IMG/VR virus record: IMGVR_UViG_2713896899_000013
Location: 1-14,478 of that record
Source of the DNA: a virus
Taxonomy: Duplodnaviria; Heunggongvirae; Uroviricota; Caudoviricetes
Length of the DNA: 14,478 nucleotides
Strand: one strand, 5' to 3'
The notes below the pieces were generated by a model. That model saw only the letters and a list, made by a program, of their open reading frames with translations, did no database searches and was not told the DNA's origin. Position 1 is the first letter of the stretch. Every line of letters starts with the position of its first letter. Positions 7,437 through 14,169 of the stretch are shown one piece after another. Made by a program: the position numbers and the translations under genes.

Positions 7437-7996
7437 GCGTTAGTTTCTCCACAGTCACGACACGCCACGGCGCCCGGAGCTGCACACTCGCGGGCGTCAT
7501 TACTTTCTGAAATGCAAAAAATTTTGTAGACCAGTGCAGCATGCTCCTGCAGCTTCGAAATTGAGAGGTACAGCTCGTCGTTAATTGCTGTCTTCTCATG
7601 CGGTTCCACCACACCGTCTTCGATTGCAGAACGAATCTGTTTTGAATAACTGCCGATCTGTTCAATGACTTCCAGCAGACGCTGGTTAACATCGGCATTG
7701 TCCACATCCTCGACGTCAGGAAGAGACACAAAGACGCCATTTGCAGACTGCGCCACAGCATCAGCAATGAAGTGAGTGCCACCAGCACGCTGTAAAACCA
7801 TTGCCCATCCCAGCGGAAAAATCTGATCGCCATCTGCACGAAGGCGGTTGAATAAAGCGTTCTCTGTTACATCCAGCCAGTCAGCCGCTTCAGCGTAACC
7901 ACCCGGCAACGCCGCGATAGTTTTTCTGACAGCTTTCACGTACCACTCAGGCTGTTTTTCTATTTTCCAGTGATGCTTACCCACGATTAGCCTCAT
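7433..7996 (-). CDS. CII-like / YdaT-like regulatory protein
   Basis: Position immediately downstream of cro in the pR operon; 187 aa with a C-terminal Cys cluster; family assignment is from memory of prophage 'regulatory protein CII' (YdaT-like) proteins and is uncertain. Confidence 0.45.
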
Positions 7997-8318: not shown

Positions 8319-8993
8319 ATGAAAACAATCCATGACATCCGGCGGTCTAACGCCAGAAAACTGAGAGATGGTGTTGGCGGGAATTCTTCCTTTGCCACTA
8401 TGATTGATCGCGAGCCAACCCAGACCAGCAGGTTTATGGGAGATGGTGCTACTAAAAATATCGGTGACAGCATGGCACGACACATCGAAAAATGTTTCGA
8501 CCTGCCTGTCGGATGGCTCGATCAAGAACACCAGACAACGAACATCACAAAAAAACCTGATGTTTCAATCACTAATAAACAAATCACATTAGTCCCTGTC
8601 ATATCATGGGTACAGGCCGGAGCATGGAAAGAAGTTGGATATTCTGAGGTTGATTTGAGCACAGCAGAAACGTATCCCTGCCCTGTACCCTGTGGGGAAA
8701 TGACTTATATCTTGCGGGTGATAGGTGATTCAATGATTGATGAGTACCGCCCGGGAGACATGATTTTTGTCGATCCTGAAGTACCTGCCTGCCACGGTGA
8801 CGACGTTATTGCATTGATGCACGATACAGGTGAAACCACCTTCAAAAGGTTGATAGAAGATGGGACACAGCGTTATCTCAAAGCGTTAAACCCAAACTGG
8901 CCTGAGCCTTACATTAAGATCAACGGTAATTGCTCTATAATTGGAACTGTGATTTTCTCAGGAAAACCAAGAAGATACAAAATCAAAGCCTAA
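8319..8993 (+). CDS. cI: CI-type prophage repressor (HTH plus S24 LexA-like peptidase domain)
   Basis: C-terminal VIGDSM...GD...FKRL pattern of the S24 self-cleaving domain; divergent from cro; no Shine-Dalgarno, consistent with a leaderless transcript. Confidence 0.85.
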   Translation: MKTIHDIRRSNARKLRDGVGGNSSFATMIDREPTQTSRFMGDGATKNIGDSMARHIEKCFDLPVGWLDQEHQTTNITKKPDVSITNKQITLVPVISWVQAGAWKEVGYSEVDLSTAETYPCPVPCGEMTYILRVIGDSMIDEYRPGDMIFVDPEVPACHGDDVIALMHDTGETTFKRLIEDGTQRYLKALNPNWPEPYIKINGNCSIIGTVIFSGKPRRYKIKA

Positions 8994-9005
8994 TCAATGT
9001 TTATG

Positions 9006-9029
9006 AACCTGCTTCGGCAGGTTTTTTTA
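9006..9029 (+). terminator. Intrinsic terminator after cI
   Basis: Stem AACCTGC / GCAGGTT with loop TTCG, followed by TTTTTTT. Confidence 0.65.
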
Positions 9030-9032
9030 TAC

Positions 9033-9078
9033 TTGACAATGTACCCATGAGATACATAATGTACCCAAGAGAAACAAC
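9033..9078 (+). promoter_or_regulatory. pL-like promoter overlapped by operators of the same family as those at pR/pRM
   Basis: -35 TTGACA (9033-9038), 16-nt spacer, -10 CATAAT (9055-9060); operator ATGTACCCATGAGATACAT (9039-9057) has the same 19-bp TGTAC-N7 architecture; a degenerate second copy lies at 9058-9076. Confidence 0.55.
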
Positions 9079-9145
9079 AAACAGGCAGGACGCCCACGAA
9101 GTAGCCGCCAGGGGCATATGAAGTCCTGGATGATTCGTTAGTAAC

Positions 9146-9170
9146 AAAAAAAGCGTCGTACAGGACGCTT
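9146..9170 (-). terminator. Intrinsic terminator of the minus-strand secreted-protein gene
   Basis: Minus-strand reading: stem AAGCGTC / GACGCTT followed by TTTTTTTG. Confidence 0.6.
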
Positions 9171-9183
9171 CGCTCTTTAACAA
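9171..9183 (+). promoter_or_regulatory. boxA-like element (CGCTCTTTAACAA) directly after a hairpin, about 105 nt downstream of the pL-like start
   Basis: 12 of 13 match to the rrn boxA consensus TGCTCTTTAACAA and contains the lambda boxA core CGCTCTT; hairpin-then-boxA order as in rrn leaders. Confidence 0.4.
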
Positions 9184-9193
9184 TCTGGATGAC

Positions 9194-9709
9194 TTATCGG
9201 TCAGATTTAAACTGGGGTTCTGGCAAAACTGGTGGTGTTGAATCTTCAAATCGTAACCAGTGTTCCCAAATATCATGTGTTCGTAATTTCTGTAGACTAA
9301 TTTGACGCGATGCAATTGCGGAATTAGTGGTTACTCCACCAGAAGCATCGCCCTCTACTGACGTTGAGGCTTTTTCTACTAATTCTGACCAAGCTTCACT
9401 TTCTGCGTCAAAAGCTTCTGTTAAGTCCCGCAGACGCTGTGGCTCATTTTTATGGTCTTCCTTCAAACGATTCAAAGCGGCAGTTGAATACTTATTCCTG
9501 ACCCATTCGATCTGAGTTAGCTGAATCCGCAGACAATTATCTATATCAATGGTTGTGTTCTGAGGCATGTCAGAACAAGAAATATAAAAGGTCACAACTC
9601 CACCGTTCAAACTACTGCCCGGTTCGATTAAAACATTAGAGGAATTTGACGTAGTCGGCAATATTAATGCTAACGACAAAACCACATGTTTAACAGAAAT
9701 CGCACCCAT
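9194..9709 (-). CDS. Small secreted/periplasmic protein (171 aa), possibly LprI/DUF1311-like; gene lies antisense to the pL direction
   Basis: AGAGGG Shine-Dalgarno upstream of the ATG at 9709; N-terminal hydrophobic signal-like segment VVLSLALIL; own terminator; the family guess is weak. Confidence 0.55.
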   Translation of the reverse strand: MGAISVKHVVLSLALILPTTSNSSNVLIEPGSSLNGGVVTFYISCSDMPQNTTIDIDNCLRIQLTQIEWVRNKYSTAALNRLKEDHKNEPQRLRDLTEAFDAESEAWSELVEKASTSVEGDASGGVTTNSAIASRQISLQKLRTHDIWEHWLRFEDSTPPVLPEPQFKSDR

Positions 9710-10040
9710 TTAAATTGCCCTCTTAAGAACAAGGTCATCCAGATTAACCGAAACCTGGTTATTGGGGAATAACCAAATCCACCTCGCCTGATGTGGCTAA
9801 AAGCAGGCACATAACAGCTAAGTATTTTCAACCAGAGAGAATCCTTAGCGTTGTGGTGAATGCGGCTCAGCGCACGCGGGTTAAGGTTGAGGCTGACAGT
9901 CGACCTTCTGTGGATACCCACCCGTCTGGTGTGCAACCTTCGCCAGGCACCGGGAGGCACCCGGCACCACAACTTTATGCTGTGTGTAGTCTTGGGGGTA
10001 CCAGTTTGTACCCTTGCTTCCGGCTGGTACCGTCCTTTTT

Positions 10041-10129
10041 ACAAAACAGAGAAGAGCATCACCGGACGACGGGCTCATAACCCAATCCATCCGGGCGGCT
10101 GCCACCGCAGGTGTTCTTCTCTGTTTTGT
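10041..10129. repeat. Perfect 15-bp inverted repeat (ACAAAACAGAGAAGA / TCTTCTCTGTTTTGT) flanking a 59-bp GC-rich segment
   Basis: Read directly; arms at 10041-10055 and 10115-10129; lies in a non-coding, hairpin-rich stretch immediately upstream of the yfdP-like gene. Confidence 0.8.
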
Positions 10130-10177
10130 GGAGAAACCAACTGGCCTTGCAGGGTCGATATGATGAGGAGCAGCAAA

Positions 10178-10540
10178 ATGGCTAGCGAACGCAGTACTGA
10201 TGTGCAGGCATTTATCGGGGAGCTGGACGGCGGCGTATTTGAAACCAAAATCGGCGCAGTTCTCAGTGAAGTCGCTTCCGGTGTGATGAACACGAAAACC
10301 AAAGGTAAGGTCTCACTCAACCTGGAAATCGAACCATTTGATGAGAACCGTGTGAAAATCAAACACAAACTCTCATATGTTCGCCCGACTAACCGCGGGA
10401 AAATTTCCGAAGAAGACACCACCGAAACGCCGATGTATGTCAATCGCGGTGGTCGCCTGACTATTCTGCAGGAAGACCAGGGACAATTACTAACTCTTGC
10501 CGGTGAACCTGACGGAAAACTCCGCGCAGCAGGTCATTAA
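10178..10540 (+). CDS. YfdP-like hypothetical protein (120 aa)
   Basis: GAGGAG 7 nt upstream of the ATG at 10178; size and position upstream of the YfdQ-like gene match the CPS-53 yfdP-yfdQ arrangement as I recall it. The track ORF 9860-10540 is a non-coding upstream extension. Confidence 0.6.
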   Translation: MASERSTDVQAFIGELDGGVFETKIGAVLSEVASGVMNTKTKGKVSLNLEIEPFDENRVKIKHKLSYVRPTNRGKISEEDTTETPMYVNRGGRLTILQEDQGQLLTLAGEPDGKLRAAGH

Positions 10541-12718: not shown

Positions 12719-12925
12719 ATGCTGAACCTCGATTGTGTTCCTATCTCAACTTATTGCAAAGAAACTGGCGAAACTCCTGAAGCAATAAACAAACGTGTAC
12801 AGCGCGGTGTTTGGCGTGAAGGTGTTCAGGTTTTAAAGGTTGAAGGCGTTAAGGAGAGGTGGATTGATCTTAGTGAGGTTGCAAAATGGGCCAGACAAAA
12901 CTGCTCAAACTACCGCGCGGCGTAA
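12719..12925 (+). CDS. xis: Excisionase-like small DNA-binding protein
   Basis: Small basic protein directly upstream of, and overlapping, the integrase gene, as lambda xis does with int; GGAGAA upstream of the ATG at 12719 (the track's 12707 is a GTG). Confidence 0.6.
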   Translation: MLNLDCVPISTYCKETGETPEAINKRVQRGVWREGVQVLKVEGVKERWIDLSEVAKWARQNCSNYRAA

Positions 12926-14064
12926 CAATCAGGAAACACCGCCAGGGCGAAACGATCAATATAACTTTCACCTACAAAGGAGTTAAATGTCGTGAGCCTC
13001 TTTCCAATCTGGAAGTAACACCAAAGAACATTAAATACGCCGAGCGCACACTCGGCGAAATTCATAATAAGATCGAAAGGGGAACATTCATTTATGCGGA
13101 ATATTTTCCCCGTTCTGCTCGTTTGAAAATTTTTGGTAATGCTGCTGCAGGCAAAACGGTAAAAATGTACCTGGACGAATACCTTGAAATCTGCGAAACG
13201 AGAAAACTTTCACCATCTACGATTGGTGGCTATAAAAAATGCCGTAGTGCGTTAGCCTCACTCCACATTTGCCCTGCAAGTGAATTAACACCAGCAATCC
13301 TGAAAGCGTGGATTCAAAGCCAGAAAACGACCTTAAAAACAATTCGCAACCAGTTATCTTTCCTGCGGTCAGCACTTGATGAAGCCGTAACCGATGGGGT
13401 ACTTCAAATTAACCCCGTATCGTTGGTAACTGCTTCGCGCTACCAAAGTGATAAGTCAGAAGCAGAAAGCAGCTACGTGGTTGATCCGCTATCACCAGCA
13501 GAAGTTGATGCATTACTAGCGGCTGCTGGAAATAAACAATGGGAGAATCTGTTCCGGTTCGCCATACATACAGGCCTGCGTAGTTCTGAATTATGTGCCC
13601 TTCGATGGCGTGATATCGACTTTGTTGGAAAAACTGCCCATGTCCAGAGCGCAAGTGTTGTCGGTGTTATCAAAGGGACAAAGACAAAAGCCGGTACTCG
13701 TAAAGTTGAACTGACAGAAGAGGCAATGTTGGCGCTGATAAATCAGAAGCCATTTACATTCATGAAGGATGCTACTGTCTTTGAAGATCCAAAGACCAAT
13801 AAGCCTTGGGCAAGTGCTGATGCAATTAGGAAAAAAGCATGGGTGCCAATATTGCGAAAAGCAGGTATTCGTTACAGAAACCCATATCAGACCAGGCATA
13901 CATTCGCCACCAGCCATATCAGCCGAGGGGCAAACCTGTTTTGGCTTTCAGTTCAAATGGGGCATAAAGGGCCGGAGATGCTTTTCAGGCACTATGGTCG
14001 ATATTTGAAAGACTATGATGGAAATACAGAACACAAGCCTAAGCTGGTCAGTGGTAAGACATAA
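12886..14064 (+). CDS. int: Tyrosine recombinase / phage integrase (392 aa)
   Basis: C-terminal catalytic region with conserved R (GLRSSE), H-x-x-R (QTRHTFAT) and the terminal H...Y (HKGPEMLFRHYGRY) pattern; sits next to the att core. Confidence 0.9.
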   Translation: MGQTKLLKLPRGVTIRKHRQGETINITFTYKGVKCREPLSNLEVTPKNIKYAERTLGEIHNKIERGTFIYAEYFPRSARLKIFGNAAAGKTVKMYLDEYLEICETRKLSPSTIGGYKKCRSALASLHICPASELTPAILKAWIQSQKTTLKTIRNQLSFLRSALDEAVTDGVLQINPVSLVTASRYQSDKSEAESSYVVDPLSPAEVDALLAAAGNKQWENLFRFAIHTGLRSSELCALRWRDIDFVGKTAHVQSASVVGVIKGTKTKAGTRKVELTEEAMLALINQKPFTFMKDATVFEDPKTNKPWASADAIRKKAWVPILRKAGIRYRNPYQTRHTFATSHISRGANLFWLSVQMGHKGPEMLFRHYGRYLKDYDGNTEHKPKLVSGKT

Positions 14065-14137: not shown

Positions 14138-14169
14138 GGACTCGGGTTCAACTCCCGCCAGCTCCACCA
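14138..14169 (+). other. ssrA: Attachment-site core: copy of the last ~32 nt of ssrA (tmRNA) ending in CCA, with one mismatch; not a complete tmRNA gene
   Basis: GGACTCGGGTTCAACTCCCGCCAGCTCCACCA versus the E. coli tmRNA 3' end GGACGCGGGTTCAACTCCCGCCAGCTCCACCA (recalled); the sequence upstream is the int gene, so the 5' 330 nt of ssrA are absent here. Confidence 0.8.

What the first reader, a model, noticed from the sequence alone, without database searches (positions are those of the whole stretch)
9940..10170. Hairpin-rich non-coding stretch with a perfect 15-bp inverted repeat upstream of the yfdP-like gene
The region contains a 5-bp stem with pentaloop (CCGGG-AGGCA-CCCGG, 9950-9964), an 8-bp inverted repeat (GGTACCAG / CTGGTACC, 9997-10031) and a perfect 15-bp inverted repeat (10041-10055 / 10115-10129) enclosing 59 nt that themselves contain CCGG / CCCGG pairing. 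The ORFs called here (9793-10080, 9881-10105, the extension of 9860-10540) overlap one another and look spurious. It could be a structured RNA on the pL transcript (put-like antiterminator, riboregulator or processing site), a protein-binding palindrome, or the ends of a miniature inserted element.
Basis: seen in the sequence. Interest (0 to 1): 0.55.

Follow-up and report, generated by a model that had tools for sequence, protein, structure and literature searches.

The report
Structured prophage leader RNA before yfdP
The hairpins are real and form a conserved folded RNA at the head of a prophage's early-left operon: the end of a known prophage small-RNA family and its stop signal, followed by an apparently undescribed long hairpin whose tip copies the anticodon arm of the initiator tRNA.

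Summary
All three repeats are present at the stated coordinates, and they are not one object. (1) CCGGG-AGGCA-CCCGG (9950-9964) is the invariant last hairpin of a multi-helix RNA core (9850-9973). This core is a divergent relative of the prophage sRNA family STnc100/PasD: Rfam RF02076 scores 36.9 bits, below the 47-bit gathering cut-off, with E 2.5e-6. (2) GGTACCAG/CTGGTACC (9997-10031) plus UUUUU (10036-10040) is that RNA's intrinsic terminator. (3) The 15-bp repeat is the core of a 25-bp stem in a 100-nt three-way-junction hairpin (10036-10135), here called hairpin C, in the yfdP 5' UTR. Hairpin C is conserved upstream of yfdP across many Enterobacterales genera. It has 12 compensatory base pairs, conserved G·U pairs and a strong plus-strand bias, so it works as RNA. 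Its tip (10070-10083) matches the E. coli tRNA-fMet anticodon stem-loop over 14 nt. The region lies about 0.8-1.1 kb downstream of a repressor-controlled pL promoter (9033-9060). The likely mechanism is attenuation at the terminator, then folding of the long hairpin in read-through transcripts as a processing or translation-control element. That mechanism is inferred, not shown. The put-like, DNA-palindrome, mobile-element and coding readings are not supported.

The parts
9033..9060 (+). pL-type early-left promoter (TTGACA, 16-nt spacer, CATAAT) with an overlapping operator at 9040-9056
   Evidence: The promoter matches 11 of 12 consensus positions, directly after the cI terminator at 9005-9024. 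The operator motif TGTAC-N7-GTACA occurs only here and twice in the cI/cro intergenic region (8235, 8285); 0.18 matches are expected by chance. cI (8319-8993) is a Peptidase_S24 repressor.
9076..9140 (+). Conserved two-helix element about 10 nt downstream of pL. It lies outside the finding and is a candidate cis-acting leader RNA.
   Evidence: There are 74 distinct variants, mostly directly downstream of sigma70 promoters with differing flanking sequences. Both helices covary by inspection of the variant list; this was not formally counted. It matches no Rfam family.
9817..9849 (+). Hairpin abutting the 5' end of the core. It occupies the position held by hairpin-C-like modules in related leaders.
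   Evidence: Inverted repeat I2. ST64B has a different hairpin at the same place. The hairpin C covariance model hits the equivalent position in L143, L146, L152, L131, L168, L151 and L167.
9850..9973 (+). STnc100/PasD-like multi-helix core. It has a closing stem (9850-9858/9965-9973), a GAAU junction, a 5-bp bulged hairpin (9862-9877), variable inner hairpins, and the invariant hairpin CCGGG-AGGCA-CCCGG (9950-9964).
   Evidence: Rfam RF02076 scores 36.9 bits, E 2.5e-6, with a full-length match over 9820-10043. The same match appears in ST64B and e14. The closing stem covaries across 94 distinct family members. The exact 19-mer CCGGGAGGCACCCGGCACC is shared with canonical STnc100 copies.
9979..9991 (+). 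Conserved motif GCUGUGUGUAGUC immediately 5' of the terminator stem
   Evidence: The motif is present in the window, e14 and L143, and in close variants in ST64B and L215, although their terminator stems differ.
9994..10040 (+). Intrinsic terminator: stem 9994-10004/10024-10035 (including the 8-bp repeat) followed by UUUUU at 10036-10040
   Evidence: The fold is shown. Among unique family cores, 88 of 121 have a hairpin plus T-run within 150 nt downstream, against 79 of 366 random control segments. The Rfam model's terminator helix aligns here. The consensus scan missed it because its loop limit is 8 nt and this loop is 19 nt.
10036..10135 (+). Hairpin C: a 25-bp basal stem (including the 15-bp perfect repeat) that opens into a three-way junction
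   Evidence: z -8.25. Across 22 sequences from about 12 genera, 93.5% of cells are paired, against at most 54% for slid controls, with 12 compensatory pairs and 0/500 shuffles as good. The covariance model scores 112 bits on the + strand and 39 on the - strand. It is present upstream of yfdP in Mangrovibacter, Kosakonia, Leclercia, Phytobacter, Providencia and other genera.
10070..10083 (+). Tip hairpin CGGGCUCAUAACCC, identical to the three G-C pairs plus anticodon loop of initiator tRNA-fMet
   Evidence: The tRNA-fMet gene sequence was verified at 100% identity to an annotated tRNA-Met gene; the query matches a median of 4 places per E. coli genome. This is the most conserved part of the tip. 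All 133 occurrences of the 14-mer in 3.7 Mb of held loci lie in hairpin C.
10127..10135 (+). UGUGGAGAA, the conserved 3' flank of hairpin C. It resembles both the core's 5' strand UGUGGUGAA and the phage's own ribosome-binding sites.
   Evidence: The motif is retained in every genus that has the leader, apart from single-base variants (UAUGGAGAA in L220/L228/L230, GGAGAUA in Kosakonia, GGAGUA in Providencia), and also where hairpin C is missing in Buttiauxella L207. The same 9-mer sits just upstream of the start of the minus-strand ORF 7098-7436, at 7445-7453, and also at 2468-2476.
10143..10156 (+). Small GC hairpin between hairpin C and the ribosome-binding site
   Evidence: The stem covaries among genera: GGCC/GGUC, GACC/GGUC, GGCGG/CCGCC and GGCUG/CAGCC.
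10165..10540 (+). Shine-Dalgarno sequence GAGGAG (10165-10170) and yfdP (ATG at 10178, stop ending 10540), the first gene of the early-left operon
   Evidence: Translation is shown. yfdP belongs to PF27127 and phrog_204, both of unknown function. The operon continues with yfdQ and yfdR.

Best explanation
The interval is part of a long, untranslated, heavily folded leader RNA of the early-left (pL) operon of an SfV/ST64B/e14-type lambdoid prophage.

Reading 5' to 3' on the + strand:
- (a) The last hairpin of an STnc100/PasD-family RNA core. The core is closed by GUUGUGGUG/CACCACAAC.
- (b) That RNA's intrinsic terminator.
- (c) A separate, conserved 100-nt hairpin in the yfdP 5' UTR. Its stem begins with the terminator's own U-run. 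Its tip copies the anticodon arm of tRNA-fMet.

Shown here: the parts, their strand, their conservation, and their pairing at the RNA level.

Inferred mechanism:
- Most pL transcripts stop at 10036-10040. This yields an STnc100-like RNA and keeps yfdP-yfdQ-yfdR low.
- Polymerases that read through transcribe the 3' arm, and the 25-bp helix forms.
- The helix buries the U-run and the GGAG of GUGGAGAA.
- Like other long perfect helices in E. coli phage leaders (the lambda N leader and sib), it is probably cut by RNase III. The cut would separate the yfdP message from the upstream leader and set its stability or translation.
For: Identity of (a):
- Rfam STnc100 gives a full-length match, E 2.5e-6. 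It recurs in ST64B and e14.
- The exact T-like hairpin is shared with canonical copies.
- The closing stem covaries.

(b) Hairpin plus U-run:
- It is seen in the folds.
- Family cores are followed by terminators in 73% of cases, against 22% of controls.

(c) Hairpin C:
- z -8.25.
- 12 compensatory pairs and conserved G·U pairs.
- The covariance model is strand-specific.
- It is conserved upstream of yfdP across genera.

Position on the pL transcript:
- The promoter and operators are identified.
- The layout cI - leader - yfdP is the same in mEp460, ST64B, Stx2a_1447 and e14.

No independent promoter is evident. None was found by the scan. In e14, Reg-seq saw a start site in one condition and one replicate only (PMC12133099).

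The RNase III step rests on established knowledge of the lambda N-leader and sib hairpins, not on a test here.
Against: - No expression or end-mapping data were available, so termination, read-through and cleavage are all untested.
- The Rfam score is below the family's gathering cut-off (36.9 against 47 bits).
- Canonical STnc100 copies are free-standing genes with their own promoters, unlike this one.
- Many stem positions of hairpin C are invariant in sequence, more than pairing alone requires. This hints at a sequence-specific partner that the model does not name.
- yfdP exists without the terminator and hairpin C in Buttiauxella (L207). It also exists with a different upstream region in two E. 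coli strains (L203, L211). The hairpin is therefore not indispensable.
- The model gives no role to the tRNA-fMet mimicry.
Confidence: 0.55

Rival explanations
1. The core plus terminator (about 9850-10040) is an ordinary free-standing, Hfq-dependent, trans-acting sRNA gene with its own promoter, like canonical STnc100 and PasD. Hairpin C is then an unrelated 5'-UTR stabiliser of yfdP.
For: Canonical STnc100 copies have clear -35/-10 boxes 7-15 nt upstream of GUGGUGAAU and their own terminators. PasD is validated by Northern blot and depends on Hfq for stability (PMC8550237). The family is described as base-pairing sRNAs.
Against: No promoter-like site lies upstream of 9850. A hairpin abuts the core instead, and ST64B has a different hairpin in the same position. 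The e14 copy showed a start site in only one condition and one replicate. Hairpin-C-type modules are physically joined to cores in other leaders, so the two parts do not look unrelated.
Confidence: 0.2
2. Hairpin C works through its tRNA-fMet anticodon-arm mimic. It could be a decoy or sensor for a factor that reads that arm: a VapC-type anticodon nuclease, MetRS, or the 30S P site with IF3. Alternatively it could be a thrS-style operator controlling yfdP translation.
For: There is 14-nt identity to the verified tRNA-fMet anticodon stem-loop. This is the best-conserved part of the tip across genera, with CAU kept in 20 of 22 sequences. The 14-mer occurs only in hairpin C within 3.7 Mb of held phage DNA. 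Salmonella and Shigella VapC toxins cleave tRNA-fMet in this loop (PMC7180214), and the hosts of these phages are the same genera. Some related modules carry T-arm-like tips (7 of 113 against 22 of 2993 controls).
Against: Only three base pairs plus the loop are copied, not the 5-bp stem. Four genera have lost one of the three G-C pairs while keeping the sequence GGCUCAUAACCCAAUCC. This fits a sequence motif with another partner as well as it fits mimicry. No binding or cleavage test was possible, and no literature precedent was found.
Confidence: 0.15
3. The core is a cis-acting processive antiterminator, functionally put-like. It would modify RNA polymerase so that it reads through the terminator that follows it.
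For: Relatives sit in two kinds of antiterminated phage operons, each time just upstream of a terminator. One is the pL leader (window, ST64B, L143, L171). The other is the late leader between Q genes (PF03589, PF06530) and the lysis genes.
Against: There is no sequence or architectural similarity to HK022 putL/putR or HK639 putL. Canonical members are stand-alone genes ending at their own terminators. PasD accumulates as a discrete Hfq-bound sRNA, which is the opposite of what read-through would give. A better-placed candidate for such a role lies at 9076-9140.
Confidence: 0.08
4. The 15-bp arms act at the DNA level, either as a protein-binding palindrome or cruciform, or as the terminal repeats of a miniature mobile element.
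For: The arms are long and perfect in this window. The block of terminator plus hairpin C is present in some leaders and absent in others (L207). A mosaic breakpoint lies near 9992.
Against: Conserved G·U pairs would be A·C mismatches on the other strand. The + strand scores 112 bits against 39 bits for the - strand. Compensatory substitutions maintain pairing. The arms are 39 bp apart. There is no target-site duplication. The repeat occurs 1-5 times per genome, and every copy whose neighbourhood I examined lay in a prophage leader.
Confidence: 0.03
5. The stretch encodes a small protein: the YmfH family, or an N-terminal extension of YfdP.
For: e14 carries an annotated ymfH ORF over the same sequence. 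ORFs 9793-10080 and 9860-10540 exist in the window.
Against: PGAP marks the equivalent stretch as a frameshifted pseudogene in a 95.6%-identical prophage. The tips differ by indels that are not multiples of three. Substitutions preserve base pairs rather than codons. YfdP homologues start at the 10178 ATG.
Confidence: 0.02

Closest known systems
STnc100 (Rfam RF02076) and PasD prophage sRNAs
   Same: The closing helix GGUG...CACC with a GAAU junction is shared. So are a 5-bp bulged hairpin with a UNNGC loop and the identical hairpin CCGGGAGGCACCCGG abutting the 3' closing strand. A Rho-independent terminator follows 30-85 nt downstream, and the location is a lambdoid prophage.
   Different: The score is below the Rfam gathering cut-off. 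The 5' half resembles the late-leader copies that are probably PasD (GUUGUGGUGAAUGCG), while the 3' half resembles STnc100. No promoter of its own is visible. It sits in the pL leader downstream of cI rather than in the late region near Q, stx and the lysis genes.
RNase III-sensitive leader hairpins of phage lambda (the N leader between nutL and N; sib downstream of int)
   Same: In both cases a long, nearly perfect helix on the pL transcript lies just upstream of the first gene's ribosome-binding site. It forms completely only in transcripts that pass a terminator, as with sib/tI. This comparison rests on established knowledge plus the anatomy.
   Different: There is no sequence similarity. 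Cleavage is untested. Hairpin C has a three-way-junction tip with a tRNA-like arm, which the lambda hairpins lack.
HK022/HK639 put (polymerase-utilisation) antiterminator RNAs
   Same: Both are cis-encoded structured RNAs in the leader of an early phage operon that lacks an N gene and is followed by terminators (PMC9378689).
   Different: Put is about 70 nt with two stem-loops and begins at +3 of the transcript. The finding's hairpins are 0.9-1.1 kb downstream of pL and share no sequence with putL or putR. The element at 9076-9140 matches put in position and size, but not in sequence.
thrS operator and other tRNA anticodon-arm mimics in bacterial 5' UTRs
   Same: In both cases a hairpin in a 5' UTR reproduces the anticodon loop and the adjacent stem of a specific tRNA. 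The thrS comparison rests on established knowledge; the identity to tRNA-fMet rests.
   Different: The tRNA copied here is the initiator tRNA. The mimic sits at the tip of a 25-bp stalk about 95 nt upstream of the start codon. No binding partner is known.

Membership tests
Rfam RF02076 STnc100 (with PasD) | Covariance-model score at or above the curated gathering threshold of 47 bits | tested here: not met
   The window scores 36.9 bits (E 2.5e-6), ST64B 35.1 and e14 29.2. A canonical copy in HK639 scores 52.6.
Rfam RF02076 STnc100 (with PasD) | Closing helix GGUG/CACC with a GAAU junction, and the invariant 3' hairpin CCGGGAGGCACCCGG abutting the closing strand | tested here: met
   There is an exact match at 9850-9861 and 9950-9973. 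The helix covaries in 94 distinct members.
Rfam RF02076 STnc100 (with PasD) | Rho-independent terminator shortly downstream of the core | tested here: met
   The stem spans 9994-10035 and the U-run 10036-10040. Terminators follow 88 of 121 family cores, against 79 of 366 controls.
Rfam RF02076 STnc100 (with PasD) | Free-standing gene with its own sigma70 promoter a few nt upstream of the 5' strand | tested here: not met
   Canonical copies have such promoters. None is found upstream of 9850, where a hairpin lies instead. This rests on a consensus scan only, so a weak promoter cannot be excluded.
Rfam RF02076 STnc100 (with PasD) | Accumulates as a discrete Hfq-bound sRNA | not testable with these tools
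   This is shown for PasD in EPEC (PMC8550237). No data exist for this subtype.
HK022-type put RNA | A two-stem-loop RNA of about 70 nt beginning within a few nt of the transcription start, with sequence related to putL/putR | tested here: not met
   The finding's hairpins lie 0.9-1.1 kb from pL. No motif is shared with the HK022 or HK639 put regions.
HK022-type put RNA | Binds the RNA polymerase beta' zinc-binding domain and suppresses termination | not testable with these tools
   This needs in vitro transcription or rpoC zinc-binding-domain mutants.
Intrinsic (Rho-independent) terminator | GC-rich hairpin immediately followed by a U-run on the transcribed strand | tested here: met
   The stem has 11-13 bp and is followed by UUUUU. 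The consensus scanner missed it because its loop limit is 8 nt and this loop is 19 nt. Efficiency is unknown.
RNase III processing hairpin | An uninterrupted double-stranded RNA helix of about 20 bp or more | tested here: met
   The stem has 25 consecutive pairs, G·U included, and is conserved.
RNase III processing hairpin | Cleavage by RNase III in vivo or in vitro | not testable with these tools
   No data are available. A literature search on ymfH found nothing relevant.
Miniature inverted-repeat mobile element | Terminal inverted repeats with a target-site duplication and dispersed copies at unrelated loci | tested here: not met
   Copies occur 1-5 times per genome; every copy whose neighbourhood I examined lay in a prophage leader. 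The flanks UUUUU and GGAGAA are not duplications.
tRNA or tmRNA gene | Cloverleaf detectable by ARAGORN or the Rfam tRNA model | tested here: not met
   No tRNA or tmRNA was detected in the window or in L002-L005. Only the anticodon arm of tRNA-fMet is copied.

The most novel reading that the evidence does not exclude
Hairpin C, and the related hairpin modules that abut STnc100/PasD-type cores in pL and late leaders, may be display stalks for pieces of tRNA. Here the piece is the initiator-tRNA anticodon arm; elsewhere it is a T-arm-like loop. On this reading, phages use them as decoys or sensors for host factors that read tRNA-fMet, such as VapC-type anticodon nucleases, MetRS, or the 30S P site with IF3. 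RNase III cleavage of the stalk could release the mimic as a small RNA. This would be a previously unrecognised phage counter-defence or translation-control device. It would also suggest that the STnc100/PasD family has a tRNA-derived architecture: an acceptor-like closing stem, a D-like arm and a T-like arm.
Probability: 0.15. Interest if true: 0.85.

Novelty: new variant of a known kind. Interest (0 to 1): 0.6.

Why it matters
STnc100 and PasD are abundant prophage sRNAs in pathogenic E. coli, Shigella and Salmonella, and their function is still unknown.

- **Leader-embedded relatives.** Divergent relatives are built into the leaders of both the early-left and the late operons, always ahead of a terminator and joined to a second conserved hairpin module. 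This links these sRNAs to the control of phage operon transcription and gives concrete constructs to test.
- **A testable hairpin.** The yfdP hairpin matches no Rfam family and none of my literature searches turned it up (the Rfam release and the open-access paper library are the only resources I could check). It is conserved across Enterobacterales. It carries an exact copy of the initiator-tRNA anticodon arm, which points to specific candidate partners that can be tested.
- **An annotation problem.** Because e14 of E. coli K-12 carries the whole arrangement under the gene name ymfH, the work also flags a probable phantom protein family.
- **A tractable system.** The e14 copy offers a well-studied laboratory strain in which to test all of this.

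Tried and rejected
- **Rfam at gathering thresholds.** No hit in the window.
- **ARAGORN.** No tRNA or tmRNA in the window or in four homologous loci.
- **Put homology.** Motif searches in the HK022 pL/pR region and comparison with the annotated HK639 putL found no similarity.
- **A possible operator palindrome, GGTTATT-N4-AATAACC, at 9757-9774.** It has no other good copy in the window. The real operator motif is TGTAC-N7-GTACA.
- **First attempt at that operator pattern.** It used the wrong spacing and gave only chance matches.
- **Consensus promoter/terminator scan of 9500-10300.** It found no terminator because of its loop-length limit, and no promoter upstream of the core.
- **A downstream partner (CUCCAC) for GUGGAGAA.** I looked for one that could close a giant core around yfdP, and found none in a suitable position.
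- **Loop-loop pairing ideas.** I considered type-2 core loops GCUGAU/AUCAGC, the anticodon-like loop with the SD region, and the anticodon-like loop with the loop of the 9076-9140 element. All are complementary over only 4-6 nt and none covaries, so none is claimed.
- **YfdP as a possible RNA-binding autoregulator.** It belongs to PF27127 and phrog_204, both of unknown function. The AlphaFold model is mediocre (pLDDT 64) and has no significant PDB fold match.
- **Literature.** Searches on ymfH, on tRNA-like lambdoid leaders, and on initiator-tRNA mimics in prophages found no description of these elements. The HK639 antiterminator paper is not in the library.
- **Type-2 cores as PasD.** Their identity with PasD is inferred from shared neighbours (Q of family PF03589 and holin). 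It is not verified by sequence.
Full report
**Observation**

- CCGGG-AGGCA-CCCGG at 9950-9964.
- GGTACCAG/CTGGTACC at 9997-10004/10024-10031.
- A perfect 15-bp inverted repeat at 10041-10055/10115-10129, extending to 25 nt at 84% complementarity.

As RNA, 10036-10135 folds to -51 kcal/mol against -24.9 +/- 3.2 for dinucleotide shuffles (z -8.25). The stretch 9975-10180 has z -4.72. The three repeats, however, belong to three different units.

**Setting**

The window is a lambdoid prophage of the SfV/SfII/SfIV/ST64B/e14/CPS-53 kind. The region is 95-97% identical to those Shigella and E. coli phages, and homologous DNA occurs in 2,869 of 5,426 complete E. coli genomes.

- cI (8319-8993, Peptidase_S24) is followed by its terminator (9005-9024).
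- Next comes a near-consensus promoter: TTGACA, 16-nt spacer, CATAAT, at 9033-9060.
- An operator TGTAC-N7-GTACA overlaps this promoter. In the whole window the motif otherwise occurs only twice, both in the cI/cro intergenic region. This promoter is therefore pL.
- Downstream on the + strand lie a conserved element (about 9076-9140), an antisense gene of unknown function (9194-9709 on the minus strand; phrog_7681), the structured region, and then yfdP (ATG 10178), yfdQ and yfdR.
- ST64B, mEp460, Stx2a_1447 and e14 share the order cI - long non-coding leader - yfdP. In e14, xisE takes the place of yfdP.

**First hairpin and the core**

A permissive Rfam search gives a full-length match of 9820-10043 to STnc100 (RF02076). 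The score is 36.9 bits, E 2.5e-6, below the 47-bit gathering score. The homologous places in ST64B and e14 match as well.

In that alignment, CCGGG-AGGCA-CCCGG is the last hairpin inside a junction. The junction is closed by GUUGUGGUG (9850-9858) pairing with CACCACAAC (9965-9973), which is the perfect 9-nt repeat I4.

Pattern scans of viral contigs with either end of the core returned hundreds of relatives. They share these features:
- The closing helix.
- A GAAU junction.
- A 5-bp bulged hairpin.
- A variable middle.
- A 5-bp hairpin abutting the 3' closing strand.

Across 94 distinct 5'/3' strand pairs the helix is 87.7% paired, against 20-62% for slid controls. Three positions alternate between G-C, A-U, U-A and C-G. 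One caveat applies: my script chose the 5' partner by complementarity when more than one candidate existed.

I see three subtypes:
- **Canonical STnc100.** These have clear promoters 7-15 nt upstream and their own terminators. They lie, for example, 75 nt downstream of stx2B (PMC12370729) or in the HK639 late leader (52.6 bits).
- **A late-leader type.** It carries GCGC-AGGCUGAU-GCGC and GCCGG-AGAUCAGCA-CCGGC. In the loci whose flanking genes I examined it sits between Q antiterminator genes (PF03589, PF06530) and the holin and lysis genes, sometimes beside phage tRNAs. PasD is reported with the same neighbours and with structural homology to STnc100 (bioRxiv 10.64898/2026.05.13.724894). This type is therefore probably PasD. 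That is an inference, not checked by sequence.
- **The window's type.** It is PasD-like at the 5' end and STnc100-like at the 3' end, and it lies in pL leaders (window, ST64B, e14, L143, L171).

**Second hairpin**

The 8-bp repeat is the centre of an 11-13-bp stem (9994-10004/10024-10035) followed by UUUUU (10036-10040). It aligns with the terminator helix of the Rfam model. Homologues have unrelated stems at the same place, each followed by a U-run.

Of 121 unique cores, 88 have a hairpin plus T-run within 150 nt downstream, mostly at 30-85 nt. Among random segments of the same loci the figure is 79 of 366. The consensus scanner reported no terminator here because it allows loops of at most 8 nt, and this loop is 19 nt. 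A conserved motif, GCUGUGUGUAGUC (9979-9991), precedes the stem in several otherwise different leaders.

**Third hairpin (hairpin C)**

The 15-bp repeat is part of a 25-bp basal stem whose first five pairs use the terminator's U-run. The stem opens into a three-way junction.

I fetched yfdP loci from one genome per species. The hairpin is present 36-57 nt upstream of the yfdP start in many genera:
- Mangrovibacter, Enterobacter, Atlantibacter, Franconibacter and Leclercia.
- Superficieibacter, Phytobacter, Kosakonia, Scandinavium and Pseudocitrobacter.
- Providencia, in a simplified form.

On an alignment of 22 distinct sequences:
- 93.5% of cells are paired, against at most 54% when partners are slid.
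- 12 pairs change on both sides.
- No shuffle out of 500 reaches the observed covariation.

Several pairs are conserved as G·U, which would be A·C on the other strand. A covariance model of the hairpin scores 112 bits on the + strand and 39 bits on the - strand. This is RNA structure on the yfdP-sense strand. It is not a DNA palindrome.

The repeat occurs 1-5 times per E. coli genome; every copy whose neighbourhood I examined lay in a prophage leader, and it has no flanking duplication. It is not a mobile element. A small GC hairpin (10143-10156) between it and the ribosome-binding site also covaries.

**An unexpected feature**

The first arm of the tip contains CGGGCUCAUAACCC (10070-10083). 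This is identical to the three G-C pairs and the seven-base loop (anticodon CAU) of the E. coli initiator tRNA. I verified my recollection of the tRNA sequence against annotated tRNA-Met genes; the query matches a median of 4 places per E. coli genome.

- It is the most conserved part of the tip. GGG, CCC and CUCAU are kept in 20 of 22 sequences, and the exceptions include the defective e14.
- All 133 occurrences of the 14-mer in 3.7 Mb of held loci lie in this hairpin.
- Three consecutive G-C pairs in the anticodon stem are the hallmark of initiator tRNAs (established knowledge).
- VapC toxins of Salmonella and Shigella cleave tRNA-fMet in this loop (PMC7180214).

I could not test any partner. 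Four genera have lost one G-C pair while keeping the sequence GGCUCAUAACCCAAUCC. A different sequence-specific partner is therefore equally possible.

**Modularity**

The hairpin C model also hits hairpins that directly abut the 5' end of cores in other early and late leaders: L152, L143, L131, L168, L146, L151 and L167, with E from 3e-6 to 0.04.

- L143's tip carries GACGGGCCCAUAACCCAAUCC.
- Other tips carry T-arm-like loops such as GGGUUCAACUCCC (7 of 113 unique upstream regions, against 22 of 2,993 controls).
- In the window, hairpin C is followed by UGUGGAGAA, a near copy of the core's 5' strand UGUGGUGAA.

The yfdP leader therefore looks like a second, truncated unit of 'hairpin plus core'. 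The block of terminator plus hairpin C is cleanly absent in Buttiauxella (L207). It travels with yfdP into phages that have a different core (a mosaic breakpoint lies near 9992).

**Mechanism**

Shown: the parts, their strand, their conservation, their pairing, and their position downstream of pL with no detectable promoter of their own. The scan found none. For e14, Reg-seq saw a start site in one condition and one replicate only (PMC12133099).

Inferred:
- The terminator attenuates pL transcription and yields an STnc100-like RNA.
- In read-through transcripts the 25-bp helix forms and hides the U-run and the GGAG.
- By analogy with the lambda N-leader and sib hairpins, the helix is then cut by RNase III. 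This would uncouple the yfdP message from the leader.

How polymerase passes the terminator is unknown. The conserved two-helix element that begins about 10 nt after pL (9076-9140) is a candidate:
- There are 74 variants, most directly downstream of sigma70 promoters with differing flanking sequences.
- Both helices covary by inspection of the variant list; this was not formally counted.
- It has the position and size of put.
- It does not resemble HK022 or HK639 put or any Rfam family.

**Comparison and novelty**

The core is a sub-threshold, leader-embedded variant of a known family (STnc100/PasD) whose function is itself unknown. Hairpin C, its tRNA-fMet-like tip, and the joining of such hairpins to cores in pL and late leaders match no Rfam family and none of my literature searches turned them up. 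I rate the whole as a new variant of a known kind.

The YfdP protein gave no lead. It belongs to PF27127 and phrog_204, both of unknown function, its model is mediocre (pLDDT 64), and it has no fold match.

Noticed in passing
window 9076-9140 (+): A two-helix element of about 65 nt starts about 10 nt after pL: AGGCAGGACGCCCACGAAGUAGCCGCC, a covarying hairpin with loop GGCAUAUGAAGU, then GGAUGAUUCG. I found 74 distinct variants, mostly directly downstream of sigma70 promoters with differing flanking sequences; blastn finds the element in phages of E. coli, Salmonella, Yersinia, Pectobacterium, Providencia and Klebsiella. It has the position and size of HK022 putL, but it does not resemble HK022 or HK639 put or any Rfam family. 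It may be a new class of pL-proximal cis RNA.
   Followed up: partly
L005 2320-2631 (e14 ymfH); window about 9853-10163: The annotated protein gene ymfH of E. coli K-12 prophage e14 lies exactly over the core, terminator and hairpin C. In a 95.6%-identical prophage, PGAP calls the same stretch a frameshifted pseudogene. The YmfH 'protein family' is probably an artefact of this conserved RNA.
   Followed up: partly
loci L127, L130, L142, L146, L148, L161, L167 (late regions): Relatives of the core with GCGC-AGGCUGAU-GCGC and GCCGG-AGAUCAGCA-CCGGC sit between Q antiterminator genes (PF03589, PF06530) and the lysis genes. Most are followed by a terminator, some lie next to phage tRNAs, and they are preceded by a hairpin-C-like module. 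By context these are probably PasD. The two hairpin loops are complementary over 5-6 nt (GCUGA/UCAGC), but no covariation supports a kissing interaction.
   Followed up: partly
window about 14141-14169 (+): GGGTTCAACTCCCGCCAGCTCCACCA is the 3' end of tmRNA (ssrA), lying just beyond the integrase gene (12886-14064). The prophage therefore appears to be integrated at ssrA, or to carry its att copy (the tmRNA sequence is from memory).
   Followed up: no
window 9194-9709 (-), with 9150-9171: A 171-aa gene of unknown function (phrog_7681, no Pfam match) is inserted antisense into the pL leader. It has its own promoter-like site (9610-9581 on the minus strand) and a terminator. The pL transcript must run antisense through it. 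ST64B and Stx2a_1447 lack this insert, whereas mEp460 carries two different minus-strand genes in the same stretch.
   Followed up: no
L207 about 1416-1500 (Buttiauxella); L203/L211 about 1330-1500 (E. coli): In Buttiauxella the core is joined directly to GUGGAGAAC, with the terminator and hairpin C precisely absent. In two E. coli strains (L203, L211), yfdP is instead preceded by direct repeats of GACGCATCAGATTTT / GACGGGTCAGATTTT that look like iterons.
   Followed up: no
L004 about 2260-2350; L016; L207 (about 100 nt upstream of the core): Two T-arm-like hairpins (CUGGUUCAAUUCCAG and UCCGUUCGAUUCGGA) lie in the leader upstream of the core. ARAGORN finds no tRNA in L004 (L016 and L207 were not scanned).
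   Followed up: partly
L413 (HK639) 44266-45216 and 37910-37969: The HK639 late leader holds tR', a tRNA, a canonical STnc100 (44780-44985, 52.6 bits) and further annotated terminators before the holin gene. The record also annotates an 'M3-like RNA' after cII.
   Followed up: no
L003 21-97 (-) (ST64B): An isrK sRNA scores above the Rfam threshold (64.3 bits) beside the antirepressor-like gene of ST64B.
   Followed up: no
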